Source: Thermodesulfobacteriota bacterium
GTDB taxonomy: Bacteria; Desulfobacterota; Anaeroferrophillalia; Anaeroferrophillales; Tharpellaceae
Length of the DNA stretch: 64,000 nucleotides
Reading direction: 5' to 3'
NCBI GenBank assembly: GCA_024763535.1
Contig: JANTFH010000005.1
Span: forward strand, 4,612-68,611
Under the pieces are notes generated by a model. It made no database searches and was not told where the DNA came from. It saw nothing but the letters and a program-made list of their open reading frames with translations. The position numbers and the translations under genes were made by a program. Numbering within the stretch: the stretch's first letter is position 1; each line of letters starts with the position of its first letter. Below are positions 1,081-57,455 of this stretch, piece after piece.

Positions 1081-1206
1081 TTTCTGCTCCTTTTATTTAA
1101 GCGGTCATCCAGGCGTTGCCGGAGTTGTTTCCGAGCGAGCGCTATACAACAGGAGATGTTTGATGTCAATCAGTTTAATTGTTGTAACAGCGTCGTTTGA
1201 ACAGCC

Positions 1207-3322: not shown

Positions 3323-3508
3323 GAGTTGTAAAGGTTGATTTTTATTTCTGGCCATCCTTTAAGGATAACCACGGGAAAAGTCAATCTTTGAATTGAGATA
3401 ATCGTCCCTGTCCGGGAGCGGGTTCTGTCGGCAAGCCCCCTTTGCCCTACTGGATCGATCCGTTGCCTGGGGTCAACAATGTCTGATTTTGAAAAACTGG
3501 AGATATTA

Positions 3509-5050: not shown

Positions 5051-5584
5051 TTATGGTTGCGGCGGTAGACTTTTTTCGTTTTTGAGCAGGTCATTTTTGA
5101 GTTTGTCGAAGTCATCCCGGCTGATGAGACCGCGGTCGTAGAGGTCTGAGAGACGCAGGAGCTCGTTGCTGGGTGACGAGTTTAGTGGCGGGTATTCCGG
5201 AAGCGCATTGAGGGGGGTTATCTGGTTTTCGAGCATCACCTGCGGTTGTTGGTCCCGGTTCTGGCTTTTGATCGAGATTGAGGCCAGGCCGCCGAGCAGG
5301 CTTACCTCAATATTCTGTCCCGGAAACGGAGGGTTATGCAGGGTGTTTAATATCTGCTTGCCGTTCTGTTTCAGCAGGTAGTAGAAAAAAGCCCCGGAGG
5401 CAATTATCAGGATAACTCCGCCCCCCAGGATATACTCTATATATTCTGAAAGAGCCTGAATAAAGACCACCGCTGTTGCCAGAATAATAACCAGCAAAAG
5501 ATGAATCAGGAGGATCAGATATCCTGCCATTACTCCGCTTAAAAGCGGATTTTTTTTGCCTTCGCTTATCTTGTCTTCATTCAT
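5051..5584 (-). CDS. Membrane protein with a C-terminal SHOCT domain
   Basis: Two transmembrane helices followed by the C-terminal sequence LRLSDLYDRGLISRDDFDKLKNDLL, typical of SHOCT. Confidence 0.6.
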   Translation of the reverse strand: MNEDKISEGKKNPLLSGVMAGYLILLIHLLLVIILATAVVFIQALSEYIEYILGGGVILIIASGAFFYYLLKQNGKQILNTLHNPPFPGQNIEVSLLGGLASISIKSQNRDQQPQVMLENQITPLNALPEYPPLNSSPSNELLRLSDLYDRGLISRDDFDKLKNDLLKNEKSLPPQP

Positions 5585-8684: not shown

Positions 8685-9041
8685 ATGTCGCATGATTATA
8701 TTCCCGTTCTGGTAATGATGATTGTCGGTGTTGGTTTCGGTGTTGTGGCCGTGGTCTTATCTCGATTGCTTGGGCCGAACCGGAAATCAAGAGTCAAAAA
8801 AGAGACCTATGAATGTGGTATGACGACGATCGGTGCCTCCTATGTGCAGACGCCGATCAAATATTATGTTGTGGCTCTGTTATTTCTCGTATTTGATCTT
8901 GAATGTGTTTTTCTCTACCCCTGGGCTGTACATTATAAGAGTCTGGGGTTTTTTGGTTTCGTCGAGATGGTCCTCTTTATGGTGGTCCTCTTCGTCTGTT
9001 ATGTTTATGTCTGGAAAAAGGGAGCCTTGGAATGGGAATAG
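8685..9041 (+). CDS. nuoA: NADH-quinone oxidoreductase subunit A
   Basis: 118 aa with 3 transmembrane segments. It contains ECGM and FDLE...LYPWA motifs typical of NuoA. Confidence 0.95.
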
Positions 9042-9562
9042 AGAGTGCATTAAAGGGCGACGGATTCCTGGTCACCAACCTTGAGAGTTTAGTTAACTGG
9101 GGACGTAAGAATTCGATCTGGCCTTGTACCTTCGGTCTGGCCTGATGCGCTTTGGAGATGATGGCTACCAGTTTGGCTAGCTACGATATCGCCCGCTTCG
9201 GTTCCGAAGTTTTTCGGCCGTCGCCGCGTCAGTCCGATCTGATGATTGTTGCCGGTACCCTGACAAAAAAGATGTCGGTAATGGTGCAGAGAATTTATGA
9301 GCAGATGGCGGAGCCCCGCTGGGTTATCGCGATGGGTGCCTGTGCTTCCTGCGGCGGGGTTTTTCAGAGTTATTCCGTGGTTCAGGGGGTCGATCAGGTT
9401 ATTCCGGTTGATGTCTATGTTCCCGGTTGTCCGCCGCGGCCGGAAGCGCTGCTGGCCAGCGTGATGAAACTTCAGGACAAGATTATGAAAGATAAATTCA
9501 GTGATCGTCCTGATTATGAAGAGCCTTCAAGCAGCAAATCCGACATTGTCAGTTTGTGTTAG
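9032..9562 (+). CDS. nuoB: NADH-quinone oxidoreductase subunit B with an in-frame TGA (9143-9145) at the position of the first Cys of the conserved GLACCA N2-cluster ligand motif. Putative Sec-containing NuoB.
   Basis: ATG 9032 overlaps the nuoA stop. The translation reads [47 protein letters not shown]...MGACASCGG...PGCPPRPE. The TGA is in frame with the downstream ORF 9152..9562. Confidence 0.7.
9162..9183 (+). ncRNA. SECIS-like hairpin 16 nt downstream of the nuoB UGA
   Basis: Stem tggctacc/ggctagct, 8 base pairs with one bulged C, and an apical loop aguuu at +27..+31. Confidence 0.3.
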
Positions 9563-9598
9563 CATAGTATATTTTCAAAATTATAGAGTGCAGAAGAT

Positions 9599-10096
9599 AT
9601 GGAAAATGCGAAAGTAGTAGAGCAGATTAAAGGTAAATTTGCTGATGCGATCATCGAGGATATCGAGTTTCGCGGCGATTTGACCATCGTGGTCAGTCTT
9701 GAGAAGCTGCATGAGATTATGCTCTATATCCATGATGATGAGTCTTTGCATTACGACCTGTTGTCGGATGTGATCGGGATTGACAGACTGCCCCGTGAGC
9801 CCCGCTTTGAGATTGTCTATGTTCTCCACTCAATGGATGACTTCAGGCGCCTGATGGTCAAGGTTATGGTTGATGTCGATATCGCTGTTCCGACCGTAAC
9901 CGACATCTGGAAATCGGCAGACTGGCCGGAGCGTGAGGTCTATGACCTTCTGGGCGTGAGTTTCAGTGATCACCCGGATCTACGCCGGATCCTGATGTGG
10001 GATGATTTTGATGGCCACCCTTTGCGCAAGGACTTTCCTCTGAAAGGTAAGGACTTCGATAAAAAATGGGACCCATCAACCATTAAGGTTATGTAA
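9599..10096 (+). CDS. nuoC: NADH-quinone oxidoreductase subunit C
   Basis: Contains the NuoC 30-kDa family motifs (DLTIVV...LLSDVIGID...EREVYDLLGV). Confidence 0.9.
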   Translation: MENAKVVEQIKGKFADAIIEDIEFRGDLTIVVSLEKLHEIMLYIHDDESLHYDLLSDVIGIDRLPREPRFEIVYVLHSMDDFRRLMVKVMVDVDIAVPTVTDIWKSADWPEREVYDLLGVSFSDHPDLRRILMWDDFDGHPLRKDFPLKGKDFDKKWDPSTIKVM

Positions 10097-10232
10097 GTTT
10101 AAGGTTTGTGAATTAGAATCTGGTGCCTGCGGATTCCCTTTGATTATGAAAACCGGGGAATATCTTGATGACGGCACTTACTTGCGGGCAACACCCGCGT
10201 TAGTGATAACTATATCATAGAGGTTGGTAGCG

Positions 10233-11405
10233 ATGGCAGAAGGTAAAATATTGACCATCAACATGGGTCCGCATCATCCGGCGACTCACGGGGTCTTGCG
10301 CCTGGTTCTGGAGCTTGATGGCGAGACGATCGTCAAGGTCACGCCCCATATCGGGCATTTGCACCGGGGGATAGAGAAGCTTGCGGAAAACATGAATTAC
10401 CAGCAGGTTATTCCGCTTACTGACCGTTTTGACTACACTGCGGCATCACTCAACAATCTTGGTTACTGTACTGCGGTAGAGAAACTTCTGGGAATTGAAG
10501 TTCCGAAACGGGCTCAGTATATTCGCGTCATCATGTCCGAGCTGGCTCGGATCATGGGTCATCATCTCTGGATCGGCAGCCATGCTCTCGACATCGGGGC
10601 GATGACCGTAGTTTTCTACGCCTTCCGTGATCGTGAAATGATCATGAATATGGTTGAAGAGGTTTCCGGTTATCGTTTAACCCCTTCTTATATGCGGGTC
10701 GGTGGCTTGGCCCGGGATATCACCCCGGAATTCATTCGCTGTCTGCGCGAATTTATCAAATGGTTCCCGACCGCCGTGGCCGGCTACAATACATTGCTGA
10801 CCGATAATATCATCTGGCGCAAAAGAACCCAGGATATTGGGGTTATTTCAGCTGAAGATGCCATTAACTATGGTTTGACCGGGCCTTCGTTGCGGGGCTC
10901 CGGAGTCGCTTATGATCTACGTAAGGTGAAACCTTACAGCAGTTATGATGACTTCGATTTTCAGGTTCCGGTTGGTGACAAGGGTGATGTTTACGACCGT
11001 TATCTGGTGCGCATGGAAGAGTTTATTCAGTCGCTTAATATTATTGAACAGGCGCTTGAAAACTTGCCGGAAGGGCCGGTAAACGTTGATAACCCGCTGA
11101 TCTTCAACCCTCAGATTGAGGATGTGCAGGAAGATATCAGTGCCCTGATCCGTCGTTTTAAGATTCAGTGCCAGGGGCCTGAGATTCCTGAAGGTGAAAT
11201 CTATCATGCGGTTGAAGGGTCCAAGGGTGAACTCGGATTCTATCTGGTTGGTGACGGTACTGAACATCCCTACCGGATGAAGGTTCGCTCCCCCTGTTTT
11301 ATCCTGGTCAGCGCCTTGGAAAAATTGATGCTTGGTCACATGATCGCCGACGCGATTGCGATTATCGGCAGCATCGATATCGTTTTGGGTGAGATTGACC
11401 GCTAG
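10233..11405 (+). CDS. nuoD: NADH-quinone oxidoreductase subunit D
   Basis: NuoD/49-kDa family sequence (ILTINMGPHHPATHGVLRLVLELDGE...IGHLHRG...RVRSPCF). Start taken at ATG 10233, which has a GAGG ribosome-binding site. Confidence 0.95.
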   Translation: MAEGKILTINMGPHHPATHGVLRLVLELDGETIVKVTPHIGHLHRGIEKLAENMNYQQVIPLTDRFDYTAASLNNLGYCTAVEKLLGIEVPKRAQYIRVIMSELARIMGHHLWIGSHALDIGAMTVVFYAFRDREMIMNMVEEVSGYRLTPSYMRVGGLARDITPEFIRCLREFIKWFPTAVAGYNTLLTDNIIWRKRTQDIGVISAEDAINYGLTGPSLRGSGVAYDLRKVKPYSSYDDFDFQVPVGDKGDVYDRYLVRMEEFIQSLNIIEQALENLPEGPVNVDNPLIFNPQIEDVQEDISALIRRFKIQCQGPEIPEGEIYHAVEGSKGELGFYLVGDGTEHPYRMKVRSPCFILVSALEKLMLGHMIADAIAIIGSIDIVLGEIDR

Positions 11406-11493
11406 TTAGGGAAAGTGTAAATTTTTTAAGTTAGTTCGTAAGTTAGTTTGAGTTGCGGAGTCTGTTTTCGCATTAGTGAATGGGAGTCGGTTG

Positions 11494-13446
11494 ATGGCTG
11501 AGATTTTATTTAGTTCCTGGGGTGGCGAGGTAGTTGATAACCGCCAAAAAGATGGCCAGGACTTTGAGCCGGTTAATACAGTTGATTTACCGGAATATTT
11601 CAGACAGGATGAAGCGGTTAAGGCTCTTATGGGCTGGTACGGCATCGTTATTCGTGACCCGGAAACCGATATCGTCGATTTGAGTCGGGTCTATATCCAG
11701 GAAGTTCAGAATAAATCCTGTGGTAAATGTTTTCTCTGTCGGATCGGCACCCGGGTTATGGCTGAGACTCTGACACGAATCTGTAATGGACAGGGCAAAT
11801 CTGAAGATCTTGAAATCTTAAAACGCCTGGCTGATTCAATTCGTGAATCCTCGAAATGTAATATCGGCCAATCCGGGCCCTTGCCGATTCTCGACGCTTT
11901 AGAGCATTTCGCCGCTGATTTCGAAGCTGCAATCAGCGCACAAAAGAGTGTTGCTGCCGGTACCTACCACTCAAAACTGACCGCACCCTGTATGGATGCC
12001 TGCCCGATCCATTTAGATATTCCCAATTATGTAGAGTGTATAAAAGAGGGACGTTTTGCCGAATCGCTTGATATTATTCGGGAAAAACTGCCGTTGCCGG
12101 GAGTTGTCGGCCGCGTCTGTGTGCGCCCCTGCGAAGAGCACTGCCGGCGTATGAATCTTGATGCTCCGATTTCGATCAAATTTCTCAAGCGTTTTGTTGC
12201 CGATTATGAACTGAGCAAAGGCAAAGAGCCTGAATTTGCAATTGAACCTTCAGAAAAAACCGGGAAGGTTGCGATTGTCGGCGCCGGCCCCAGCGGTGCA
12301 ACCTGTGCTTTCCATCTTGCAAAGATGGGCCATGATGTTACCGTTTATGAGCGTTTCGATGAACCCGGCGGCATGTCGGCCATGGGGATTCCTGATTATC
12401 GCCTGCCGCGCCCTATTCTTAGAGAAGAGGTTGACCGCATTGAGCGTATGGGGGCGACCTTTAATTACGAAACCACGGTCGGTAAAGATATTAAACTCTC
12501 CCAGCTTGAAGCCGATAACGATGCCGTGTTTATCGCTATCGGGGCCCAGATGGGTACGACGATGGGGGTTGAAGGTGAAGAAGAGAACTATGCCGGTTAT
12601 ATCTCCGGGGTGCAGTACCTGTTGGATATCAACCAGGGTCGGGATCCTTATCCTGAAGGTAAAAAAGTAGCAGTCATCGGCGGCGGCAACGTGGCGATCG
12701 ACTGTGTGCGCTGCTCCTTCCGGGTGGGCAAGGACGATGTCAATCTTATCTATCGCCGGACCAAAAATGAAATGCCGGCTGATGATGTTGAAATCCATGA
12801 CGCGGAAGAGGAAAAAGTCAATTTTCACTATCTTACGCATCCGGTTAAAATTCTGGCGGAAAACGGTAAAGTTGTTGGTCTGCGCTGTGTTAAAATGGAG
12901 TTAGGCGAGCCCGACGAGAGTGGTCGCCGGCGGCCGCAGCCGATTGAAGGTTCGGAATTTGTTATAGAGTGCGACATTGTGGTCCCGGCGATTGGCCAGA
13001 CGATGGATTTGTCTCTGCTTGAAGGACGTGAAGACGTTAAAACCACCCGCTGGAAAACGATTGTCGTTGACGAAGTAACTAAACAGAGCGACCAGCCGAA
13101 AATCTTCTCCGGCGGTGACTGTGAAACCGGTCCCGGGGCTTTGATTACTGCTTGTGCCGGAGGGCGGACGGCCGCTTTTAATATCGATAAGCTGATCAAT
13201 GGTGAACCGCTGGATTATACCGAAGATGACTATTTTGATAAATTTTTCAGTAAGGTTAAGGTCTTTGACCCGGCTGAAGATATTGGATTCTTAGGCGGTC
13301 GCGAGCGGAAAGAGCTGGAGATGCTTGATCCCGACACCCGCAAATTCACCAACGCTGAAGTGGAACAGGGCTTTTCGATTAACGATGCCATGGCTGAGGC
13401 CGATCGCTGTCTGCGCTGTTATCGGGTGGCAACTGTAAGAGTATAA
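11494..13446 (+). CDS. Fusion iron-sulfur flavoprotein: NuoF C-terminal 4Fe-4S domain joined to a GltD/NfnB-like 2x[4Fe-4S] FAD/NAD(P)H oxidoreductase. It lacks the NuoF FMN/NADH-binding domain.
   Basis: N-terminus SCGKCFLCRIGT...SKCNIGQSGP matches the NuoF 51-kDa C-terminal cluster. It continues with CMDACP...GRVCVRPCEEHC, VAIVGAGPSGATCAF (FAD-binding) and KKVAVIGGGNVAIDC (NAD(P)H-binding), as in the glutamate synthase beta chain family. Confidence 0.8.
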   Translation: MAEILFSSWGGEVVDNRQKDGQDFEPVNTVDLPEYFRQDEAVKALMGWYGIVIRDPETDIVDLSRVYIQEVQNKSCGKCFLCRIGTRVMAETLTRICNGQGKSEDLEILKRLADSIRESSKCNIGQSGPLPILDALEHFAADFEAAISAQKSVAAGTYHSKLTAPCMDACPIHLDIPNYVECIKEGRFAESLDIIREKLPLPGVVGRVCVRPCEEHCRRMNLDAPISIKFLKRFVADYELSKGKEPEFAIEPSEKTGKVAIVGAGPSGATCAFHLAKMGHDVTVYERFDEPGGMSAMGIPDYRLPRPILREEVDRIERMGATFNYETTVGKDIKLSQLEADNDAVFIAIGAQMGTTMGVEGEEENYAGYISGVQYLLDINQGRDPYPEGKKVAVIGGGNVAIDCVRCSFRVGKDDVNLIYRRTKNEMPADDVEIHDAEEEKVNFHYLTHPVKILAENGKVVGLRCVKMELGEPDESGRRRPQPIEGSEFVIECDIVVPAIGQTMDLSLLEGREDVKTTRWKTIVVDEVTKQSDQPKIFSGGDCETGPGALITACAGGRTAAFNIDKLINGEPLDYTEDDYFDKFFSKVKVFDPAEDIGFLGGRERKELEMLDPDTRKFTNAEVEQGFSINDAMAEADRCLRCYRVATVRV

Positions 13447-13532
13447 TGCGGTCCTAAATCCGTGTTGAAGTATAGTTTTGCAAATAGAGTTTTGATTTTT
13501 TTAAGTAAAATTTTTACGCAGGGAAAATTAGC

Positions 13533-16208
13533 ATGGTCACGTTGACGATTGACGGCAAAGAAGTCACCGTCCCCCAGGGAACGACCATCCTTGAGGCGGC
13601 CCGGAGTGTCGATATCAGAATTCCGACACTCTGTTACCACGATCGTTTGAACCCTATCGGTTCATGTCGGATGTGTGTAGTTGAGATCGAAGGTTATACG
13701 CACCCGATGGCAGCCTGTACAACTCCGGTTGATGATGGGATTGAGGTTGTAACTAAATCTGATCGTCTGACTAGGATTCGTCAGGATTCGTTGAAACTGA
13801 TTCTGGTTAATCATCCGCTTGACTGTCCGGTTTGTGATAAGGGCGGCGAGTGCCTGTTGCAGGATTTGACCTACGAATTCGGGATTGATCAGGTTGAGTA
13901 TAAAGCGGCAAAAGTCGAGCGTGAATCACAGTATGCGACTCCGCTGATTCGTTACTGGCCCGACCGCTGTATCATGTGCCTGCGCTGCGTTACCGCCTGT
14001 CAGGAGATTAAGGGAATCGGCGCCATCAGTATTCAGGGAGACGGTTACGGAGCCCAGGTAGTGGCCGTAGATGCCGAGAAGTGTCAATCCTGCGGTGAGT
14101 GTCTGCAGGTCTGTCCGACCGGGGCCCTGACTGAGGATTTGAGCCGTTATAAAGGTCGCACCTGGCTGGTTGACAGAGTGCCGACCACCTGTACCTACTG
14201 CGGTTGCGGTTGTCAGCTTGAACTTAATGTTCAAAATGACCGGGTTATCGCCGTAACCACCCGGGAGGGGGTTGGCGTTAATCATGGCAGTCTCTGTGTC
14301 AAGGGCCGTTTCGGTTACGAATTTATCAACAGTGATGAACGGTTGACCAAACCGCTGATCAAGAAAAACGGCAAATTTGAAGAGGCGAGCTGGGATGAAG
14401 CTCTGGACCTGGTAGCCAGTAAGTTCTCTGCGATCAAAGAGGAACACGGCCCCGGTGCCCTGGCCGGCTTGACCTCGGCCCGTTGTACCAATGAAGAGAA
14501 CTACCTTTTCCAAAAATTTATGCGCGCGGCGGTCGGGACCAATAATGTCGATCACTGCGCCAGGCTCTGACACTCCTCAACTGTGGCCGGACTGGCCGCA
14601 ACGTTTGGCAGTGGAGCAATGACCAACCCGATTGCCGATGTCCTGAAATCAGAGACCGTATTGGTAACCGGAACTAATACCACGGAAAATCATCCGATTT
14701 TCGCCAATTACCTGAAAGAGGCCGTGCTTAAACACGGCACCAAGATTCTGGTGATCGATCCGCGGCGCATCGATCTGGTCGATTACGCCGAGCTCTACCT
14801 CCAGCCGAAACCGGGTACCGATATTGCCTGGATTAACGGTTTGATGCATATTATCATCAAGGAGGGCTGGGCGGCCCAGGATTATATCGACGAACGTTGT
14901 GAAGGTTTCGATGAATTTAAAAGCAATCTCGAAAAATTCACACCTGAATATGTTTCTGGAATTACCGGTCTGACCGAAGATGAGCTCTATGCCGCGGCCA
15001 AACTCTATGGCCAGGCGGCTCCGGCCTCAATCCTTTACGCCATGGGTATCACCCAGCATACCAGCGGTACCGATAATGTTAAATCATTAGGTAACCTGGC
15101 GATGCTTTGTGGTAACATGGGAGTTGCCGGCGGCGGCGTCAATCCGCTGCGGGGCCAGAACAATGTGCAGGGTGCCTGCGATATGGGTGGTCTGCCGAAT
15201 GTCTACACCGGTTATCAGAAGGTCGATGTTGATGAAGTGCGGGAGAAATTCGCCAAGGCCTGGGGGCTTGCGGCGGAGGCTATGGATTCAGCACCCGGTC
15301 TGAAACTGACCGAAATGTTTCCGGCAGCGGCCGAGGGTAAAGTCAAGGCTCTCTATATTATGGGTGAGAACCCGCTGGTCAGTGATCCCGATTTAACTCA
15401 TATTGAACACTGTATCGAAGCCCTTGATTTCTTCGTTGTGCAGGATATCTTTCTAACCGAAACGGCTAAGAAAGCCGATGTCGTGCTGCCCGGAGTCTCC
15501 TTTGCTGAAAAAGATGGAACCTTCGTCAATTCCGAGCGGGTTGTACAGCGGGTTCGTAAAGCATTAACGATTCCCGGCGAAGCTCGTGAAGACAGTGCTA
15601 TTATTGCCGATATCTCAACCCGTATGGGATATGAGATGAAATATGAAAGTGCCGCCGATATCATGAAAGAGATCAACGCTGTGACCCCGAGTTACGGCGG
15701 CATCACTTATGAACGTTTGGAAAACGGCGGCCTGGCCTGGCCCTGCCCCGACAGTGAACATCCCGGGACACCAATTCTGCATGTTGATAAATTTGCCCGC
15801 GGTAAAGGTCTCTTTTTCGCGATAGATCATCAGCCGCCGGCTGAACTCTGCGATAATGAGTATCCGTTTGTACTGTCGACCGGCCGTGTTCTCTCTCATT
15901 TCCATACCGGAACCATGACCCGCAAGGGTTCCGGCCTGAATAAGGTTCATCCTGAAGTCAAGGCTGAGATCAACCCTGAAGATGCCGCGCGTCTGGGGAT
16001 TGAAGCGGATGATCGTCTTAAGATTACCTCCCGCCGGGGTTCGATCGAGGTTAAAGCCATGCTCAGTGACCGTCCGGCAGCCGGGGTGGTATTTGTACCC
16101 TTTCACTTTCATGAAGTTGCAGTTAACCGTCTGACCAACGCGGCTCTCGATCCGGTTGCCAAAATTCCGGAATATAAGGTCTGCGCGATTAAGGTTGAAA
16201 AGGCTTAG
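13533..16208 (+). CDS. fdhA: NuoG/FdhA-like molybdopterin oxidoreductase catalytic subunit (formate dehydrogenase alpha-like) with selenocysteine encoded by in-frame TGA at 14568-14570
   Basis: ORFs 13533..14570 and 14583..16208 are in the same frame. The translation reads 2Fe-2S (CYHD...CRMC), HxxxCxxC, CIMCLRCVTAC, CQSCGECLQVCP, CTYCGCGCQ, then [29 protein letters not shown], the textbook Sec/Cys active-site motif of FdhA/FdhF. Confidence 0.85.
14582..14600 (+). ncRNA. SECIS-like hairpin 11 nt downstream of the fdhA UGA
   Basis: 7-bp stem tgtggcc/ggccgca with loop ggacu at +21..+25. Confidence 0.55.
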
Positions 16209-16265
16209 CCGGCAAAACGAGTCTAAATTATCGAAGTACTTTTACAGTTTGAAGAGGTATAACGG

Positions 16266-17252
16266 ATGCTGGAATTTATGACCATATTGATAATCAAAAC
16301 GTTGGTGGCATTCACCGTCAGCCTGCTGATTGTGGCCTATTCGACCTGGATCGAGCGTAAAGTTTTGGGTCATGTGCAGCTGCGACACGGGCCGCGTCGA
16401 GTCGGTTTCCATGGTCTTCTGCAGCCTATAGCCGATGGTATCAAAGGTTTTTTCAAAGAGGAGCTGATTCCTGATAACGCCGATAAACCGCTCTTTCTGC
16501 TGGCACCGATTATCAGTATCGGAGCGGCGGTTACATTAATTGTAATTGTTCCTTTCGGGGATAAGATTACCATTATGGGGCACGAAATAACCCTTTATCT
16601 GACTGATCTTGATGTCGGTATTCTCTTCGTTCTCGGAATTTCGACCATCGGCTCCTACGGTGGTATCCTCGGGGGCTGGTCCTCCGGTAATAAATACGGG
16701 GTCATCGGCGGTCTGCGTGGATCGGCCCAGATGATCAGTTATGAACTCTCCCTGGCATTGGCGGTAATTGCTGTAGTTATGGTCAGCGGTTCGTTGAGCC
16801 TGATCGATATCGTTAACTCTCAAACCGGACTCTGGAACATCGTCAAACAGCCGTTTGCCTTTGTCCTTTTTATTATCTGCGGCCTGGCCGAACTCAACCG
16901 GACGCCGTTTGATATGCCCGAAGCCGAGGCCGAACTGGCCTGTGGTTTCAATGTTGAGTACAGTTCCATGAAGTTCGCCCTTTTCTTTATGGCGGAATAC
17001 TGTCATATGTTTGTCTTTGCCGCGCTGGTGACGACCCTCTTCCTGGGTGGTTGGCATGGTCCCTTTATCGACGGGCCGCACTGGTTTTTCCTCAAGTGTT
17101 TTGTGATTATCTTTTTCTGCGTCTGGGAACGTTCGACCTTTCCGCGTTTGCGTTATGACCAGGTTATGAGCTTCGGCTGGAAAATTTTGCTGCCCTTCGG
17201 TCTTCTGAATATTCTTCTGACCGGGCTCTGGATGCTGATTTTCAACATGTAG
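16266..17252 (+). CDS. nuoH: NADH-quinone oxidoreductase subunit H
   Basis: Polytopic membrane protein, 328 aa, with a NuoH/ND1-like sequence (WIERKVLGHVQLRHGP...). Confidence 0.95.
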   Translation: MLEFMTILIIKTLVAFTVSLLIVAYSTWIERKVLGHVQLRHGPRRVGFHGLLQPIADGIKGFFKEELIPDNADKPLFLLAPIISIGAAVTLIVIVPFGDKITIMGHEITLYLTDLDVGILFVLGISTIGSYGGILGGWSSGNKYGVIGGLRGSAQMISYELSLALAVIAVVMVSGSLSLIDIVNSQTGLWNIVKQPFAFVLFIICGLAELNRTPFDMPEAEAELACGFNVEYSSMKFALFFMAEYCHMFVFAALVTTLFLGGWHGPFIDGPHWFFLKCFVIIFFCVWERSTFPRLRYDQVMSFGWKILLPFGLLNILLTGLWMLIFNM

Positions 17253-17306
17253 GATTAACCCAAACTGAGATAGTATTAGATTTAAGAATATAAATTTGAG
17301 GATAAT

Positions 17307-17783
17307 ATGGCTGACAAGGATTACATACTCAATATCAGTGACCGGCGCCCGACGGGTAAATATATCACGCCGATTCTGAAAGGCCTGGGTTACACGCTGA
17401 AGAATTTCTTCAGTAAGCCGATTACGATAAAATATCCGACCGAGCGCCGTGAAGTCAGCGACCGCTGGCGGGGCCTGCATCGTTTGAAAGTGGATGATCG
17501 GGGGGCTTTGAAATGTGTCGCCTGCGGCCTTTGCGCAAAGATCTGTCCGCCTAAGGCGATCACCATTGTGCCCTACGAAGAGGCCGGCGAAACCCGTTAT
17601 CCGAAAGAGTTTGTGATTGACGAGCTGCGTTGTATCTTCTGCGGCTTCTGTCAGGAAGCCTGTCCTAAAGATGCGATTGAGCTGACGAAAGTTTACGATT
17701 TTGTGGATTATAAACGCGAAGACTTTATCTTCGATATCGAAAAACTGAAAACCCCGGAAAAATATATCTTCAACGGCAAATAG
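17307..17783 (+). CDS. nuoI: NADH-quinone oxidoreductase subunit I (2x[4Fe-4S])
   Basis: Two ferredoxin-type motifs, CVACGLCAKICP and CIFCGFCQEACP. Confidence 0.95.
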   Translation: MADKDYILNISDRRPTGKYITPILKGLGYTLKNFFSKPITIKYPTERREVSDRWRGLHRLKVDDRGALKCVACGLCAKICPPKAITIVPYEEAGETRYPKEFVIDELRCIFCGFCQEACPKDAIELTKVYDFVDYKREDFIFDIEKLKTPEKYIFNGK

Positions 17784-17796
17784 TGGGAGTAGATTG

Positions 17797-18306
17797 ATGG
17801 AACTGGTATTTTTGTTGATATGCGGTGGAGTTGCGGTAATCGCCTCGCTGCTGGTTATCTTTGCTCGCTCCACCCTGCACAGTGCCCTGTGGATGGTTCT
17901 CTCCTTTTTTATGGTAGCGATAATCTACGTTCTGCTGCACGCTCAGTTTCTGGCTATGCTTCAGGTTATTGTCTACGCCGGAGCGATTATGATGTTTATT
18001 GTCTACGCCATCATGATGCTGAATCTGCGTCAGGAAGCCAAATCCAAGGTCGCAACCCGAATCTCCAAGGTAGTTGGAGTCGGGGCTCTGATTGTGCTTT
18101 TTCTCGAACTTACTCTGATCGGCGTAAGTCACAATATGGCCACAATACAGGGTCCGGTAACGGATAAGCTTGTGGCCACCTACGGCCGGGTAGCGGTAAT
18201 CTCAAATTTTCTTTTTTCCGACTATCTGCTGCCGTTCGAGGTCGCATCCATTCTCCTGACTGCGGGTGTTGTCGGGGCCGTAGTTCTGGCTAAACGTGAA
18301 AAATAG
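17797..18306 (+). CDS. nuoJ: NADH-quinone oxidoreductase subunit J
   Basis: Hydrophobic NuoJ-like protein in nuo gene order. GGGAG ribosome-binding site before ATG 17797. Confidence 0.9.
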   Translation: MELVFLLICGGVAVIASLLVIFARSTLHSALWMVLSFFMVAIIYVLLHAQFLAMLQVIVYAGAIMMFIVYAIMMLNLRQEAKSKVATRISKVVGVGALIVLFLELTLIGVSHNMATIQGPVTDKLVATYGRVAVISNFLFSDYLLPFEVASILLTAGVVGAVVLAKREK

Positions 18307-18317
18307 AGGGAAAGGTA

Positions 18318-18623
18318 ATGGTTGATAATCAAAGTATATATCTGACGTTTGCGGTTATTCTGTTTGTCATCGGCGCGGCCGGTGCCATCTGCCGCCGTAA
18401 TGCGATTGTTGTCTTTATGTGTATTGAAATTATGCTGGCCGGAGTCAGTATTGCATTTGTAACCTTCAGTCGTGCCAATCACTCTCTGGACGGTATCTTT
18501 ATGGTTCTGTTTGTTATGGCGGTTGCTGCCGCAGAAGCAGCGGTCGGTCTGGCGATTTTTCTTTTGATGTATCGCAAACAGGGCTCGATCGATCTGGATA
18601 AGTTTAATCTGTTGAAGTGGTAG
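18318..18623 (+). CDS. nuoK: NADH-quinone oxidoreductase subunit K
   Basis: 101 aa with 3 transmembrane segments, NuoK/ND4L-like. Confidence 0.9.
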   Translation: MVDNQSIYLTFAVILFVIGAAGAICRRNAIVVFMCIEIMLAGVSIAFVTFSRANHSLDGIFMVLFVMAVAAAEAAVGLAIFLLMYRKQGSIDLDKFNLLKW

Positions 18624-18724
18624 ATCTGTTTAGCTGAAGCTCGATCTTATTGTGTAAATTTAGAATCTCGTAAACTGAGTGTTTTGAGATAACGTTTTAA
18701 GATATTTTTTAAGGAGATAGAGGT

Positions 18725-20815
18725 ATGTTCGATTATATCTGGTTGGTACCGGTCTTCCCGGCCATCGGAGTTTTGATCAACGGTCTGCTTGGACGTCGTC
18801 TAGAGGCGATTAACAAGAGTTTGATCCATTGGATCGCCTGCGGTGCGATCGCCCTCTCCTATATCGTTACCTGTACTATTTTCTACCAGCTCCTGCAGCT
18901 CCCTGAAGCTGAACGATTTTATCAGGTGACCTGTTTTTCCTGGATCAACAGCGGGGTCTTACAGACTTATATTGCTTATCAGATTGATCCCCTGTCAATG
19001 ATGATGGCGATGTTTGTTATCGGGGTCGGCTTTCTCATCCATGTCTATTCGATTGGCTATATGGATGGCGATCCGGGTCGTTACTACCGCTTCTTTGTTT
19101 ATTTGAATCTTTTTATGTTCTCGATGATCAATCTGATTCTCGCCAACAACTATCTTTTGATGTTCTTAGGCTGGGAAGGGGTTGGGTTGTGTTCCTATCT
19201 TTTGATCGGCTTCTGGTTTGATGACGAGGCCAATGCAATTGCCGGCAAAAAAGCTTTTATTACCAACCGGGTGGGTGATTTCGCTTTTTTGATCGGGATG
19301 TTTCTGCTCTTTACCGGACTGGGTGAACATGGTGTCTGGAGCCTGCAGTTTAACGAAGTGTTCAGTAACGTTCACTACCTTTCAACCAGTCAGGCAACCG
19401 CCATCTGTCTCCTCTTTTTTATCGGTTGTACGGCCAAGTCAGCTCAGATTCCACTCTATGTCTGGCTGCCCGATGCCATGGCCGGCCCGACTCCGGTCTC
19501 TGCCCTGATCCATGCCGCTACTATGGTGACCTCGGGTGTCTATATGATCACCCGCTCCAATATCCTATATTCTATGTCACCTCTGGCGATGGGGGTTGTG
19601 GCGACGGTTGGAGCTTTGACGGCGCTGTTTGCCGCGTCGATCGGCCTGGTGCAGAATGATATCAAAAAAGTTCTGGCCTATTCAACTGTGAGTCAGCTCG
19701 GTTATATGTTCCTAGGGCTCGGTGTCGGTGCCTTCGCCGCCGGTATGTTTCATGTTTTAACCCATGCATTCTTTAAGGCTCTTATGTTTTTGGGATCTGG
19801 TGCGGTTATTCACTCTATGCATCATGCTTATCATAAAGTGCATTCCCATGATGATGCTCAGGATATGCGAAATATGGGCGGATTGAAGAGTAAGACCCCC
19901 ATAACTTATTGGACCTTTCTGGTTGGCGCATTGGCAATTGCCGGGGTTCCGGGACTTTCCGGCTTCTTCAGTAAGGATGAAATTCTCTGGCAGGCATACA
20001 GCAGTCCACAGGGCCACTGGTTGCTCTGGCTTATAGGTGCAATGGCTGCGGGAATGACTGCATTTTATATCTTCCGATTAATTTTTATGACATTCTTTAA
20101 CGATTGCCGGGCAGGAGACGCGGCTGAGCATATCCATGAATCGCCTCTGACCATGACGATACCGCTGATGGTTCTGGCCGTGCTGGCAGCTTTTGGTGGT
20201 TATCTAGGCGTTCCGCATGCTTTGGGTGGCAGCAATCTTTTTGAGCACTTCCTGGAGCCGGTAATGGGAATGGGTGATGGGAAACTGTTGCAGGATGCCA
20301 CGACTGCGGTTGCCCACGGTGCCCATCATGCCGTGCATGCAGCTGCCGGTCACATTACTGAGGCCGCACACGCTGTTGCCGGGCATGCCGAGGGTGGTGC
20401 CCATCATGTTGGACATGAACCGCTCTGGGTTGAGTATTTATTGATGGCCGTTTCCGTTGCTTTAGCTTTCGGTGGCATCTTTGTCGCCTATATGTTTTAC
20501 ATTGTTAAACGTGAACTGCCGGTGGCTCTGGCGGAGAAATTTTCCTTTATTCACCGTCTGTTGCTGAATAAATGGTATATTGACGAACTCTACGATGTGG
20601 TTATTATTTCACCCCTGCGTGGTTTCAGTTATTTTCTCTGGAAAGGGATTGATGTCGGAGTGGTTGATTACATCGTCAACGGAGTTGCCCGGATAGTTGG
20701 CTGGGGAAGCAGTGCCGTGCGCTACATACAGTCCGGTTATGTGCAGAGTTACGCGGTTTCAGTCGTATTCGGTACGGTGGTGCTGCTGGCCTACTACTTC
20801 TTGAAGGCACTCTAG
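18725..20815 (+). CDS. nuoL: NADH-quinone oxidoreductase subunit L (antiporter-like), with a His-rich insertion
   Basis: 696 aa with NuoL/ND5 motifs (WLPDAMAGPTPVSALIHAATMVTSGVY). His-rich insertion at about 20246..20422. Confidence 0.95.
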   Translation: MFDYIWLVPVFPAIGVLINGLLGRRLEAINKSLIHWIACGAIALSYIVTCTIFYQLLQLPEAERFYQVTCFSWINSGVLQTYIAYQIDPLSMMMAMFVIGVGFLIHVYSIGYMDGDPGRYYRFFVYLNLFMFSMINLILANNYLLMFLGWEGVGLCSYLLIGFWFDDEANAIAGKKAFITNRVGDFAFLIGMFLLFTGLGEHGVWSLQFNEVFSNVHYLSTSQATAICLLFFIGCTAKSAQIPLYVWLPDAMAGPTPVSALIHAATMVTSGVYMITRSNILYSMSPLAMGVVATVGALTALFAASIGLVQNDIKKVLAYSTVSQLGYMFLGLGVGAFAAGMFHVLTHAFFKALMFLGSGAVIHSMHHAYHKVHSHDDAQDMRNMGGLKSKTPITYWTFLVGALAIAGVPGLSGFFSKDEILWQAYSSPQGHWLLWLIGAMAAGMTAFYIFRLIFMTFFNDCRAGDAAEHIHESPLTMTIPLMVLAVLAAFGGYLGVPHALGGSNLFEHFLEPVMGMGDGKLLQDATTAVAHGAHHAVHAAAGHITEAAHAVAGHAEGGAHHVGHEPLWVEYLLMAVSVALAFGGIFVAYMFYIVKRELPVALAEKFSFIHRLLLNKWYIDELYDVVIISPLRGFSYFLWKGIDVGVVDYIVNGVARIVGWGSSAVRYIQSGYVQSYAVSVVFGTVVLLAYYFLKAL

Positions 20816-20895
20816 AAACAGCTCTAAATTTAACGAAATTTTTTAATACAATTTATATCCCAAAGTTTAAATAGATTCCGCAGGGAGAGAGATAG

Positions 20896-22479
20896 ATGAA
20901 TGAACTAGGTTTTCCGATAATCAGCCTTGTGACCTTTTTTCCGATCTTCGGGGCGTTGATCCTGATGTTTATCGATAAAGAGGCCAAAGATACGCTCCGG
21001 GGCACTGCCATGGTTTTTGCCATGATTGAGTTCTTTATCTCTCTGCCGATCATCTTCGCATTTCAAAGCGGTACTGCAGATATGCAGTTCGTGGAGCGCT
21101 ACACCTGGATTAAGAGTGCCGGTTTAAGTTATTATATCGGTCTGGACGGTATCAGTCTCTGGATCTTTATGCTGACCACCTTCTTAACTCCGATCTGTGT
21201 TTTGTGTTCCTGGAACTATATTCAGAAACGGGTCAAAGAGTTCATGATCTGCCTCCTGTTACTGGAGACGGCCATGCTGGGGGCTCTGGTCTCCCTGGAC
21301 CTGATCCTTTTCTATATCTTCTGGGAACTGATGCTGATTCCGATGTATTTCCTGATCGGAGTCTGGGGTGGAGACAATCGGATCTATGCCGCAGTTAAGT
21401 TTTTTATCTATACCGCCGCCGGTTCGGTCTTCATGCTGCTCTCGATATTCTTTCTCTACTATTACAACCATAAGGTCACCGGCGTCTATACCTTTGATCT
21501 GCTGGAACTTTACAAACTTAATATTCCGGTATCGACCCAGTTCTGGCTCTGTCTGACCTTTTTTGTCTCGTTCGCCATTAAGGTACCGATGTTTCCGCTC
21601 CACACCTGGCTGCCGGATGCTCATGTCCAGGCTCCGACGGCCGGTAGTGTAATTTTGGCAGGTGTTCTCTTGAAAATGGGAACTTACGGTTTCATGCGCT
21701 TTGCGATTCCGCTCTTTCCCTACGCCAGTCATCAGTTTACACCGGTTATTGCGACATTAGCGGTAATCGGCATCATCTACGGGGCTCTGGTAGCCCTGAT
21801 CCAGCCTGATATGAAGAAACTGGTTGCCTATTCCAGTGTCAGTCACTTGGGTTATGTCATGCTCGGTATCTTTGCTTTCAATATGCAGGGGGTTGAGGGT
21901 GGTCTCTATCAGATGCTCAACCATGGTATCAGTACCGGCGCTCTCTTCCTGATCGTCGGTATGCTTTATGAGCGTCGTCATACCCGGATGATCAAGGATT
22001 TCGGTGGTATCGCCAAGGTGATGCCGGTCTATGCCACCTTTTTCATGATTATGACCCTGTCATCAATTGCGGTTCCCGGAACCAACGGTTTCGTCGGCGA
22101 GTTTATGATCCTGGTCGGAGCTTTCCGCTCAATTCCGATGCATGCTGTTTTTGCCACTTCCGGGGCCATCCTCGGGGCGCTTTATATGCTCTGGATGTAT
22201 CAGCGGGTGATGTTTCAGCCCCTCGATAAAGAGGAAAACAAGGTCTTGAAAGATCTCAATGCCCGGGAAATTGTGACTCTGCTGCCGCTGGCGATACTGG
22301 TTTTCGTTATGGGTTTCTTTCCTGGTTATTTCATCAATAAGATGGACGCTTCATGTCAGCACTTCCTGAAAAACTATAATCAGCAGGTGGCCATGTATGA
22401 ACAGCAGGTTGAAGATGGCAGTGCCGCCAAACTGGCCGCGGTGATGAGTGACAATAATTTAGAGAAGAAGATCGACTGA
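20896..22479 (+). CDS. nuoM: NADH-quinone oxidoreductase subunit M
   Basis: 527 aa, NuoM/ND4 family (WLPDAHVQAPTAGSVILAGVLLKMGTYG). Ends in a TGA stop. Confidence 0.95.
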   Translation: MNELGFPIISLVTFFPIFGALILMFIDKEAKDTLRGTAMVFAMIEFFISLPIIFAFQSGTADMQFVERYTWIKSAGLSYYIGLDGISLWIFMLTTFLTPICVLCSWNYIQKRVKEFMICLLLLETAMLGALVSLDLILFYIFWELMLIPMYFLIGVWGGDNRIYAAVKFFIYTAAGSVFMLLSIFFLYYYNHKVTGVYTFDLLELYKLNIPVSTQFWLCLTFFVSFAIKVPMFPLHTWLPDAHVQAPTAGSVILAGVLLKMGTYGFMRFAIPLFPYASHQFTPVIATLAVIGIIYGALVALIQPDMKKLVAYSSVSHLGYVMLGIFAFNMQGVEGGLYQMLNHGISTGALFLIVGMLYERRHTRMIKDFGGIAKVMPVYATFFMIMTLSSIAVPGTNGFVGEFMILVGAFRSIPMHAVFATSGAILGALYMLWMYQRVMFQPLDKEENKVLKDLNAREIVTLLPLAILVFVMGFFPGYFINKMDASCQHFLKNYNQQVAMYEQQVEDGSAAKLAAVMSDNNLEKKID

Positions 22480-22622
22480 TTTAATCTTTATTTAAGGTGG
22501 AACCCGGCCCGAACTGTTTATATTAAGTTTCCGGAAATCCGGGATACATGCCGGCTGGCTTATCCCAGACTGTGCAATATACAAATTATTATATTTTTTA
22601 AGATAAATTTTGGAGGAGAGTG

Positions 22623-57441: not shown

Positions 57442-57455
57442 TTTAAGGAGAGATT

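What the first reader, a model, noticed from the sequence alone, without database searches (positions are those of the whole stretch)
9032..9562. NuoB with TGA in place of the first Cys of the invariant tandem-Cys N2-cluster ligand: candidate selenocysteine in the complex I Q-module
A single in-frame TGA (9143-9145) splits an otherwise intact nuoB (531 nt), giving ...[16 protein letters not shown].... In E. coli (SCCYVEM), Thermus and mitochondrial PSST, this position is the first of the two adjacent cysteines that ligate Fe-S cluster N2, and the other N2 ligands ([14 protein letters not shown]) are present. Strict TGA-for-Cys alignment is the standard criterion for calling Sec. A bulged 8-bp hairpin with a G-containing loop lies 16 nt downstream, and the same window contains a textbook Sec gene (fdhA), so the Sec machinery is expected. 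A selenium-ligated N2 cluster in complex I would be unusual and could tune the redox potential of the quinone-reducing cluster.
Basis: partly seen in the sequence, partly recalled or inferred. Interest (0 to 1): 0.85.

Follow-up and report, generated by a model that had tools for sequence, protein, structure and literature searches.

The report
Selenocysteine-coding NuoB in respiratory complex I
The complex I subunit NuoB in this bacterium has a conserved in-frame UGA, followed by a selenocysteine-insertion hairpin, in place of one of the four cysteines that hold the last iron-sulfur cluster (N2); the same replacement recurs in other bacteria and in haptophyte algae, and I found it in no selenoprotein catalogue.

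Summary
nuoB (9032-9562, +) has one in-frame TGA (9143-9145) that aligns without gaps to Cys45 of Thermus Nqo6 and Cys63 of E. coli NuoB, the first of the tandem N2 ligands. The other three ligands are present.

It is not an error or a pseudogene. All 20 distinct gene sequences of this clade, from independent assemblies, keep the TGA, and both sides are under equal purifying selection. TGA is an ordinary stop elsewhere in the window. Three other recoded genes of known selenoprotein families lie in the same window.

The downstream hairpin meets all four published bacterial SECIS criteria. A DNA-pattern scan found at least 120 metagenome contigs with TGA at this site, in about 9 bacterial NuoB lineages (at least two phyla). 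All have a hairpin with compensatory changes, which matched Cys forms mostly lack. A haptophyte NDUFS7 group has eukaryote-type 3'UTR SECIS-like elements instead. Sec and Cys forms interleave (83-99% identity).

NuoB is absent from a 2026 list of 119 prokaryotic selenoprotein families. Best reading: SelB-dependent Sec insertion giving a selenolate ligand to N2 (about 0.85). The effect on N2 is untested, and no protein-level evidence exists.

The parts
9032..9562 (+). nuoB coding sequence (176 codons including the UGA); its start overlaps the end of nuoA by 10 nt
   Evidence: PF01058 at E=1e-29; 60% identical to T. thermophilus Nqo6 in an ungapped alignment.
9143..9145 (+). In-frame UGA (codon 38), the proposed Sec codon; it corresponds to Nqo6 Cys45 / E. 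coli NuoB Cys63 / Yarrowia NUKM Cys85, the first of the tandem N2 ligands
   Evidence: invariant in 20/20 distinct clade genes; TGC/TGT in 76 of 78 species representatives.
9146..9148 (+). Cys39 codon, the second tandem N2 ligand (Nqo6 Cys46)
9162..9183 (+). Core SECIS-like hairpin: U19-A40 stem (9 bp with bulged C at 9177), apical loop GUU at 9171-9173; it begins 16 nt after the UGA and the loop begins 25 nt after it
   Evidence: In the clade, pair 26-33 switches UA(7)/CG(5); 94% of positions pair, against 42% in the nearest Cys forms. Meets the bSECIS constraints quoted.
9154..9193 (+). Extended hairpin that includes the core (lower stem GG.GAUG / CAUC.CC)
   Evidence: -12.0 kcal/mol; synonymous variation falls to 0.12 per codon over codons 39-52, against 0.39 in the rest of the gene.
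9341..9343 (+). Cys104 codon, an N2 ligand (Nqo6 Cys111)
9428..9430 (+). Cys133 codon, an N2 ligand (Nqo6 Cys140)
8685..24092 (+). The nuo operon containing nuoB: nuoA 8685-9041, nuoB, nuoC 9599-10096, nuoD 10224-11405, GltD/NuoF-C-terminal-like flavoprotein 11476-13446, FdhA-type selenoprotein 13533-16208, nuoH 16266-17252, nuoI 17307-17783, nuoJ 17794-18306, nuoK 18318-18623, nuoL 18725-20815, nuoM 20896-22479, nuoN 22620-24092
14568..14613 (+). Positive control in the same operon: the Sec-UGA of the FdhA-type gene (14568-14570) and its SECIS (7-bp GC stem, loop GGACU at 14589-14593)
   Evidence: TIGR01591, 873 bits.

Best explanation
nuoB is a selenoprotein gene. During translation the hairpin at 9162-9183 (extended 9154-9193) recruits SelB-GTP-Sec-tRNA(Sec). 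UGA codon 38 is then read as selenocysteine and a full-length 176-residue NuoB is made. In the assembled complex I, Sec38 takes the place of the first tandem cysteine (Nqo6 Cys45) and supplies a selenolate ligand to one iron of the [4Fe-4S] cluster N2, the cluster that passes electrons to quinone.

Shown here:
- the position of the codon
- its conservation
- purifying selection on both sides of it
- a covarying hairpin with bacterial SECIS properties
- recurrent Sec/Cys exchange in many lineages
- other recoded genes in the same window

Inferred:
- that selenium is actually inserted
- that the Se atom binds N2, as Cys45 does in solved structures
- that this changes the cluster's properties. 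Candidates are the reduction potential, relief of the strained tandem-ligand geometry (Se-C and Se-Fe bonds are longer), and resistance to irreversible oxidation next to the quinone site.
For: 1. Position. The TGA aligns ungapped with Nqo6 Cys45 / E. coli Cys63, and the other three ligands are present.

2. Not an artefact or pseudogene. All 20 distinct clade genes from independent NCBI, ENA, JGI and Logan assemblies keep the TGA. Non-synonymous differences are about 0.04 per codon both upstream and downstream. Synonymous differences fall from 0.39 to 0.12 per codon over codons 39-52.

3. No genome-wide reassignment. TGA ends 11 of 48 genes in the window.

4. The Sec trait is present. There are three other TGA-interrupted genes of known selenoprotein families in the window: UshA-like PCG-U (TGA 3665; NF041198), FdhA type (TGA 14568; TIGR01591), and GSU2204 family (TGA 59355; NF041027). 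The last has a hairpin of similar spacing and an AAGUU loop.

5. The hairpin meets all four published bSECIS constraints: 3-9 nt loop, G in the first two loop positions, 16-37 nt spacing, MFE <= -7.5.

6. Generality. At least 120 metagenome contigs carry FGLA-TGA-CAxEM, in about 9 bacterial lineages.
   - All 96 distinct bacterial RNAs have a hairpin whose loop starts at +23 to +28 (counted from the U of the UGA), with G in the first two loop positions. Only 37% of Cys forms have that G.
   - Median hairpin energy is -7.9 against -5.3 kcal/mol (Mann-Whitney p=1e-12).

7. Compensatory changes. Pair 20-38 is GC 28, CG 13, UA 2, UG 2, AU 1. At least 6 of 7 core pairs form in 100% of TGA forms, against 19% of Cys forms of the same peptide family.

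8. Sec and Cys forms interleave. The nearest Cys form is at 0.83-0.99 identity, closer than any other Sec lineage.

9. Haptophyte-type NDUFS7 transcripts have the same TGA but no coding hairpin. They have AUGA..AA..GA elements in the 3'UTR instead, one scoring 34.9 bits on Rfam SECIS_1.
Against: - There is no protein-level evidence of any kind.
- selA, selB, selC and selD are not in the window, and the rest of the genome could not be searched.
- The single-sequence fold is not better than shuffles (z=-0.54).
- The apical loop lies 6-7 nt further from the UGA than in the FdhA-type and UshA-like elements of the same window (+27/28 against +21, counted from the U).
- The closest Cys-form relatives, which encode the identical peptide, keep 5-6 of the 8 pairs, and one (L223) folds as stably as the Sec form (-8.0 kcal/mol). 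Inside this clade the hairpin therefore discriminates only weakly.
- Rfam has no hit in the window, not even for the canonical FdhA element, so that test says nothing either way.
- The TGA and Cys sequences compared are phylogenetically related, so the p-value is inflated.
Confidence: 0.85

Rival explanations
1. Sec is inserted, but the replacement is near-neutral. In selenium-rich, Sec-rich organisms a metal-ligand Cys drifts back and forth to Sec with no important change in how N2 behaves.
For: Sec and Cys forms interleave at up to 99% identity. Cys-form relatives with an intact Sec-type FdhA exist in the same clade. The carrier has at least four selenoprotein genes in 64 kb. The operon types that carry Sec-NuoB differ, so no single physiological context stands out.
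Against: The same one of the four ligands is replaced in about 9 bacterial lineages and in haptophytes, which use two different SECIS systems. Maintaining a SECIS inside a highly conserved coding region has a cost. I did not look for TGA at the other three ligands, so the apparent site specificity is untested.
Confidence: 0.4
2. The UGA is decoded through the hairpin, but as cysteine (or another residue) rather than Sec. This could happen through Cys-charged tRNA(Sec) under selenium limitation, or through a Sec-like tRNA charged with Cys.
For: Nothing in the sequence distinguishes Sec from Cys insertion at a SECIS-dependent UGA. Cys is fully functional at this site in most organisms.
Against: Three other genes in the window belong to families where Sec is the established residue, including FdhA. 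No tRNA is encoded in the window, so there is no positive evidence for a special tRNA.
Confidence: 0.07
3. The UGA terminates translation. The cell makes a 37-residue N-terminal peptide and, by re-initiation at AUG 9158/9161, a 133-134-residue C-terminal NuoB fragment lacking the first N2 ligand. That would be a split or regulated NuoB.
For: Gene callers in NCBI, JGI and ENA annotate exactly this: a 37-aa ORF plus a 133-aa ORF. GGAG precedes the AUG AUG at 9154-9163.
Against: The GGAGAUGAUG sequence encodes the conserved LEMM and is equally present in Cys forms. Its spacing to the AUG is too short for a normal ribosome-binding site. The hairpin covaries specifically in TGA forms. Eukaryotic forms pair the same TGA with 3'UTR SECIS-like elements, which a split-gene model does not explain. 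N2 would also lose a ligand that mutational and structural work treats as part of the cluster site (PMC8042128).
Confidence: 0.04
4. The TGA is a sequencing or assembly error, or a recent inactivating mutation (pseudogene).
For: TGC/TGT to TGA is a single-base change.
Against: The TGA is found in 20 distinct sequences of the clade from independent samples and assemblers, and in two GTDB species representatives. There are no frameshifts or further stops. dN is much lower than dS on both sides, and the operon is intact.
Confidence: 0.01

Closest known systems
Canonical Cys-type NuoB / Nqo6 / NDUFS7 (PSST), the complex I subunit that binds cluster N2 through the CC...C...C motif
   Same: Same family (PF01058) and same operon position. 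It is 60% identical to T. thermophilus Nqo6 without gaps, and three of the four N2 ligands are retained.
   Different: The first tandem cysteine (Cys45) is encoded by UGA followed by a SECIS-like hairpin. In this clade the operon also replaces nuoEFG with a GltD-like flavoprotein and a true FdhA-type selenoprotein.
Formate dehydrogenase alpha subunit (FdhA/FdhF), the prototype bacterial selenoprotein
   Same: An in-frame UGA aligned with Cys in homologs, a SECIS hairpin immediately downstream in the coding region, and Sec as a metal ligand. One is encoded in the same operon.
   Different: In FdhA, Sec binds Mo/W at a catalytic site. Here it would bind an iron of an electron-transfer [4Fe-4S] cluster. 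The NuoB loop lies 6-7 nt further from the UGA.
[NiFeSe] hydrogenases and the Sec-containing Fe-S proteins VhuD/FrhD and HdrA
   Same: Sec replaces a metal- or cluster-binding Cys, with Sec/Cys forms interchangeable between relatives (PMC13188914). From established knowledge, NuoB and NuoD are homologous to the small and large subunits of [NiFe] hydrogenase.
   Different: In [NiFeSe] hydrogenase the Sec is in the large subunit (the NuoD homolog) and binds Ni. Here it is in the small-subunit homolog, at the cluster that corresponds to the proximal cluster. None of these proteins is part of complex I.
[quoted passage not shown]
   Same: It is the only NADH:quinone oxidoreductase component in the selenoprotein catalogues I read.
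   Different: It belongs to the unrelated Na+-NQR/Rnf family, not to complex I, and is not an N2-type cluster ligand.

Membership tests
NuoB / Nqo6 / PSST (complex I 20-kDa subunit, PF01058) | Significant match to the family profile over the full domain | tested here: met
   PF01058 at E=1.2e-29, profile positions 1-128 of 128; NCBIfam nuoB_fam TIGR01957 at 238 bits against a cut-off of 143.
NuoB / Nqo6 / PSST (complex I 20-kDa subunit, PF01058) | Four N2 ligands in the pattern CC...C...C (Nqo6 C45, C46, C111, C140) | tested here: met
   The ungapped alignment gives UGA38, C39, C104 and C133. Three are Cys, and the first is the UGA codon.
NuoB / Nqo6 / PSST (complex I 20-kDa subunit, PF01058) | Encoded in a nuo operon between nuoA and nuoC/D, with the membrane subunits H-N | tested here: met
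Bacterial selenoprotein gene (Sec-UGA plus bSECIS) | In-frame UGA aligned with Cys in homologs (Sec/Cys pair), with conserved coding sequence on both sides | tested here: met
Bacterial selenoprotein gene (Sec-UGA plus bSECIS) | bSECIS model (PMC13188914 Fig. 2): 3-9 nt apical loop, 4-16 bp upper stem, G in the first two loop positions, 16-37 nt between UGA and loop, MFE <= -7.5 kcal/mol | tested here: met
   The loop is GUU (or AGUUUG in clade variants). The stem is 9 bp with one bulge, and 25 nt separate the UGA from the loop. Energy is -7.9 kcal/mol for the core and -12.0 for the extended hairpin.
Bacterial selenoprotein gene (Sec-UGA plus bSECIS) | Hairpin maintained by selection (covariation) and specific to UGA forms | tested here: met
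   Compensatory pairs occur within and between lineages. At least 6 of 7 core pairs form in 100% of TGA forms, against 19% of matched Cys forms. Caveat: the closest Cys forms retain 5-6 of 8 pairs.
Bacterial selenoprotein gene (Sec-UGA plus bSECIS) | selA, selB, selC (tRNA-Sec) and selD present in the genome | not testable with these tools
Their presence is inferred from three other recoded genes of known selenoprotein families in the window.
Bacterial selenoprotein gene (Sec-UGA plus bSECIS) | Selenium demonstrated in the protein | not testable with these tools
   This needs 75Se labelling or mass spectrometry.
Catalogued prokaryotic selenoprotein families (119 families/subfamilies, Zhang et al. 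2026, PMC13188914) | The family (PF01058 / NADH-quinone oxidoreductase subunit B) is listed | tested here: not met
   I read the whole table. NuoB is absent, and only NqrE (PF02508) is listed. It is also absent from the GOS, Olavius-symbiont and 2022 lists. NCBIfam NuoB models carry no '(seleno)protein' label, and public annotations split the gene into 37-aa and 133-aa products.
Eukaryotic selenoprotein gene (for the haptophyte-type NDUFS7 relatives, not the window gene) | A 3'UTR SECIS with the AUGA...AA...GA core | tested here: inconclusive
   The motif and stem are visible in most of the 17 contigs. Rfam SECIS_1 gives 34.9 bits (gathering score 35.0, E=1e-3) for L187 and 22.8 bits for L180, and nothing for the others.

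The most novel reading that the evidence does not exclude
Complex I with a selenium-ligated N2 cluster is a real, widespread and overlooked natural variant. Sec at the first tandem ligand, the one next to the quinone-binding tyrosine, has been selected repeatedly: in Thermodesulfobacteriota, in Nitrospirota and, through a different SECIS system, in haptophyte mitochondria. On this reading it was selected because it changes the properties of the quinone-reducing cluster (potential, pH dependence, relief of the strained tandem ligation, or oxidative robustness). That would make respiration in these organisms partly selenium-dependent.
Probability: 0.4. Interest if true: 0.9.

Novelty: new member of a known kind. 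Interest (0 to 1): 0.8.

Why it matters
N2 is the cluster that hands electrons to quinone. Its unusual tandem-cysteine ligation has long been discussed in relation to its high, pH-dependent potential and to coupling in complex I.

A natural selenolate ligand at exactly this position would provide several things:
- A built-in spectroscopic probe. 77Se hyperfine coupling in EPR/ENDOR would report on one defined iron of N2.
- Natural Sec/Cys enzyme pairs, up to 99% identical, for direct comparison of N2 potential, turnover and stability.
- A link between selenium supply and core respiration in anaerobic sediment and vent bacteria and in haptophyte algae.
- A new selenoprotein family shared by bacteria and eukaryotes.

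There is also a practical point. Current pipelines split the bacterial gene into 37-aa and 133-aa ORFs, or splice out 24 residues in a haptophyte gene model. Complex I may therefore be scored as incomplete in these genomes.

Tried and rejected
- **Single-sequence folding:** The z-scores were not significant for any of the Sec elements in the window, including the canonical FdhA one. I treated single-sequence folding as uninformative and relied on comparative evidence.
- **Rfam on the window:** No hits at gathering threshold, not even for FdhA, so the test does not bear on bacterial SECIS elements.
- **tRNA scan of the window:** None found, so no tRNA-Sec.
- **Full annotation of the window for selA/B/D:** None found.
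- **Exact look-up of the U-containing full-length protein:** I wanted to see whether any source annotates it as a selenoprotein, but the tool does not accept U. I used cluster names instead.
- **Code 4/25 reassignment:** Considered and rejected, because TGA is a normal stop in 11 of 48 genes.
- **Mitochondrion-encoded nad10 with TGA=Trp for the alpha/mitochondrial-type group:** Rejected. The position requires Cys, and the contigs are GC-rich nuclear-type transcripts with N-terminal extensions and 3'UTR SECIS-like elements.
- **The algal 'FeS reductase/FeS oxidoreductase' selenoproteins as NDUFS7 under another name:** Rejected. FeSRD is described as almost exclusively Sec-containing, whereas Cys-type NDUFS7 is universal.
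- **The Sci Adv 2026 multihaem selenoenzyme paper:** It does not concern NuoB.
- **One fixed-column structure for all lineages:** Abandoned, because hairpin centres differ by up to 3 nt between lineages. I did the covariation analysis per register instead.

Full report
**Observation**

The ORF at 9032-9562 (+) is 531 nt and translates to a NuoB whose only interruption is TGA at 9143-9145, in the context [17 protein letters not shown]. With the stop read as Cys it matches Pfam PF01058 at E=1e-29 and the NCBIfam NuoB models.

An ungapped alignment to solved structures places the TGA at Cys45 of T. thermophilus Nqo6 and Cys63 of E. coli NuoB. C39, C104 and C133 fall at Cys46, Cys111 and Cys140.

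Work on Yarrowia complex I describes this pair (C85/C86) as strained. It describes the first cysteine as the more mobile one, lying close to the quinone-binding tyrosine (PMC8042128).

**Context**

The gene sits in a complete nuo operon (8685-24092): nuoA, B, C, D, then a 656-residue protein, then an 891-residue protein, then nuoH to nuoN.
- The 656-residue protein combines the NuoF C-terminal 4Fe-4S domain with a GltD-like flavoprotein.
- The 891-residue protein is a true FdhA-type formate dehydrogenase (TIGR01591, 873 bits). It is itself interrupted by TGA at 14568-14570 in the canonical context HCARL-U-HSST.

**Not an artefact, pseudogene or code change**

A protein search returned 133-residue hits that are 91-97% identical to the C-terminal part. 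Their contigs come from NCBI MAGs and from ENA, JGI and Logan assemblies of different samples. All show the same split into a 37-codon ORF and a 133-codon ORF, and the DNA shows TGA at the same codon in every case.

Across 20 distinct full-length gene sequences of the clade:
- codon 38 is invariant;
- non-synonymous differences are about 0.04 per codon both before and after it;
- synonymous differences are 0.39 per codon in the body of the gene, 0.17 in the N-terminal part, and 0.12 over codons 39-52.

TGA terminates 11 of 48 genes in the window, so it is not globally reassigned.

**Sec/Cys pairs**

Among 78 species-representative genomes with a recognisable site, two (94% and 92% identical) have TGA and 76 have TGC or TGT.

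Inside the same 90%-identity protein cluster there are 176-residue Cys forms (HDS15437.1, MBN2705998.1). Their operons still carry the TGA-interrupted FdhA, so those organisms have the Sec trait but use Cys in NuoB.

**The hairpin**

A stem-loop begins 16 nt after the UGA, at 9162-9183. It has 9 bp with a bulged C and a GUU loop, and it can extend to 9154-9193. It satisfies all four constraints of the published bacterial SECIS model (PMC13188914):
- apical loop of 3-9 nt;
- upper stem of 4-16 bp;
- G in the first two loop positions, and 16-37 nt between the UGA and the loop (here 25 nt);
- MFE no higher than -7.5 kcal/mol (here -7.9 for the core and -12.0 extended).

On its own the fold is no better than shuffled sequence (z=-0.54). 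The same is true of the canonical FdhA element, so the evidence has to be comparative.

Within the clade the stem exists in two compensating versions: C-G with a bulge, or U-A without one. Pair 26-33 is UA in 7 and CG in 5 distinct sequences. Overall 94% of stem positions pair, against 42% in the nearest Cys forms.

Two caveats apply. The very closest Cys forms, which encode the identical peptide, still form 5-6 of the 8 pairs, and one is as stable as the Sec form. The loop also lies 6-7 nt further from the UGA than in the FdhA-type and UshA-like elements of this window. Against the second caveat, the GSU2204-family element at 59355 has similar spacing (+24, counted from the U of the UGA) and a similar AAGUU loop.

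**Generality**

They fall into about ten NuoB lineages that are less than 80% identical to each other.

In the nine bacterial lineages a hairpin starts 16-20 nt from the U of the UGA, although the encoded peptides differ ([32 protein letters not shown] and others). Comparing TGA forms with Cys forms of the same region:
- All 96 distinct bacterial RNAs have G in the first two loop positions, against 37% of 71 Cys-form sequences.
- Median hairpin energy is -7.9 against -5.3 kcal/mol (Mann-Whitney p=1e-12, inflated by relatedness).
- In the two largest lineages that share one register, pair 20-38 is GC 28, CG 13, UA 2, UG 2, AU 1.
- In those lineages at least 6 of 7 core pairs form in 100% of TGA forms, against 19% of Cys forms of the same peptide family.

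Each Sec lineage has a Cys form closer to it (0.83-0.99 identity) than any other Sec lineage, which means repeated switching. One lineage belongs to Nitrospirota (Thermodesulfovibrionales / Dissulfurispiraceae). This window's clade is annotated as Thermodesulfobacteriota / Deltaproteobacteria.

Operon types differ between lineages: the GltD plus FdhA insert, a nuoEFG-like type, or the 11-subunit type. The recoding is therefore a property of NuoB, not of one kind of complex.

**Eukaryotes**

Seventeen contigs encode a mitochondrial-type PSST/NDUFS7 with N-terminal extensions, GC content of 0.56-0.70 and the same TGA. They lack the coding-region hairpin.
- Their 3'UTRs contain AUGA...AA...GA stem-loops.
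- One matches Rfam SECIS_1 over the full model at 34.9 bits (gathering score 35.0). One matches weakly, and the others are not detected.
- The nearest named relatives are haptophytes.
- The Chrysochromulina gene model matches contig L209 at the N-terminus but omits exactly the 24 residues around the TGA. A Cys form 99% identical also exists.

**Is it known?**

Full-text searches combining selenocysteine or selenoprotein with NuoB, NDUFS7, PSST, cluster N2, and 'NADH-quinone oxidoreductase subunit B' found no description. The few papers containing both words use them in unrelated passages.

The 2026 inventory of 119 prokaryotic selenoprotein families does not list NuoB. The only NADH:quinone oxidoreductase entry is NqrE. 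The GOS, Olavius-symbiont, 2022-review, algal and 2007 eukaryotic selenoproteome papers do not mention it either. Public annotations split the gene.

This is absence from what I could search, not proof that nobody has seen it.

**Mechanism and verdict**

The best-supported reading is standard SelB- and SECIS-dependent insertion of Sec at codon 38. That gives a NuoB whose selenolate takes the place of Cys45 as a ligand of N2 (confidence about 0.85 for Sec decoding).

The Se-Fe bond follows from the structural role of Cys45 but is not shown. Any effect on potential, on strain relief or on oxidative robustness is inference. A near-neutral Sec/Cys drift in selenium-rich organisms remains a serious alternative explanation for why the recoding occurs.

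I file it as a new member of a known kind: a new selenoprotein family that uses the ordinary recoding mechanism, with Sec replacing a metal-binding Cys as in FdhA, [NiFeSe] hydrogenase and VhuD. Interest is high because of where the residue sits.

Noticed in passing
window 3479-4975 (+), TGA at 3665-3667: A UshA-like selenoprotein gene (NCBIfam NF041198, motif PCG-U) is split by TGA. It has a signal-peptide-like N-terminus and C-terminal multihaem-cytochrome-like matches. A hairpin with a GGUCUG loop follows the TGA.
   Followed up: partly
window 11476-16208 (+): Inside the nuo operon, nuoE/F/G are replaced by two genes. One is a 656-aa protein (NuoF C-terminal 4Fe-4S domain plus GltD-like NAD(P)H flavoprotein). 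The other is an 891-aa genuine FdhA-type Sec formate dehydrogenase with NuoG-like N-terminal Fe-S domains. This suggests a formate- and/or NAD(P)H-linked input module for complex I. The same architecture occurs in another Sec-NuoB lineage (cluster 0: L104, L106, L114 and others).
   Followed up: partly
window 56431-59780 (+), TGA at 59355-59357: A GSU2203-family decahaem cytochrome (56431-57441) is followed by a GSU2204-family CXXCH (seleno)protein / MtrB-PioB-like porin (57456 onward). The latter continues for 141 codons past an in-frame TGA, making it the fourth recoded gene in 64 kb. Its hairpin loop (AAGUU, starting at +24 from the U) resembles the NuoB one.
   Followed up: partly
window 5887-8100 (-): A 737-aa multihaem cytochrome with an NrfH/NapC-like N-terminus is transcribed divergently from the nuo operon. 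The same gene sits at this position in all relatives with enough flank (L001, L007, L009, L010, L015, L221).
   Followed up: no
loci L103, L105, L112, L131, L143, L150, L172, L174, L187, L209 and others: Haptophyte-type nuclear NDUFS7 genes or transcripts carry TGA at the same cysteine and have eukaryote-type 3'UTR SECIS-like elements. The Chrysochromulina gene model P0276 skips 24 residues around the TGA, and a Cys form 99% identical (P0274) exists.
   Followed up: partly
loci L219-L224 (closest Cys-form relatives): Cys-form NuoB genes in the same clade retain part of the SECIS-like hairpin (5-6 of 8 pairs; L223 at -8.0 kcal/mol). Their operons keep the Sec-type FdhA. The hairpin could be a relic of a recent Sec-to-Cys reversion, or a pre-existing structure from which the SECIS arose.
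   Followed up: partly
window 45117-46829 (-): A 570-aa ORF combines an N-terminal RpiB/LacAB ribose-5-phosphate isomerase domain with a full serine hydroxymethyltransferase domain. This is an apparent gene fusion.
   Followed up: no
window 9350-9352 (codon 107 of nuoB): There is an extra cysteine three residues after the N2 ligand Cys104 (GACASCGG, where Thermus has GACASSGG). Similar extra cysteines (CACSGG, CACTGG) occur in the other bacterial Sec lineages and in their Cys forms. Their significance is unknown.
   Followed up: no
window 133-1200 (+), 1207-3252 (-), 5051-5584 (-), 31712-32707 (+): Four sizeable ORFs have no Pfam or NCBIfam match at the thresholds used.
   Followed up: no
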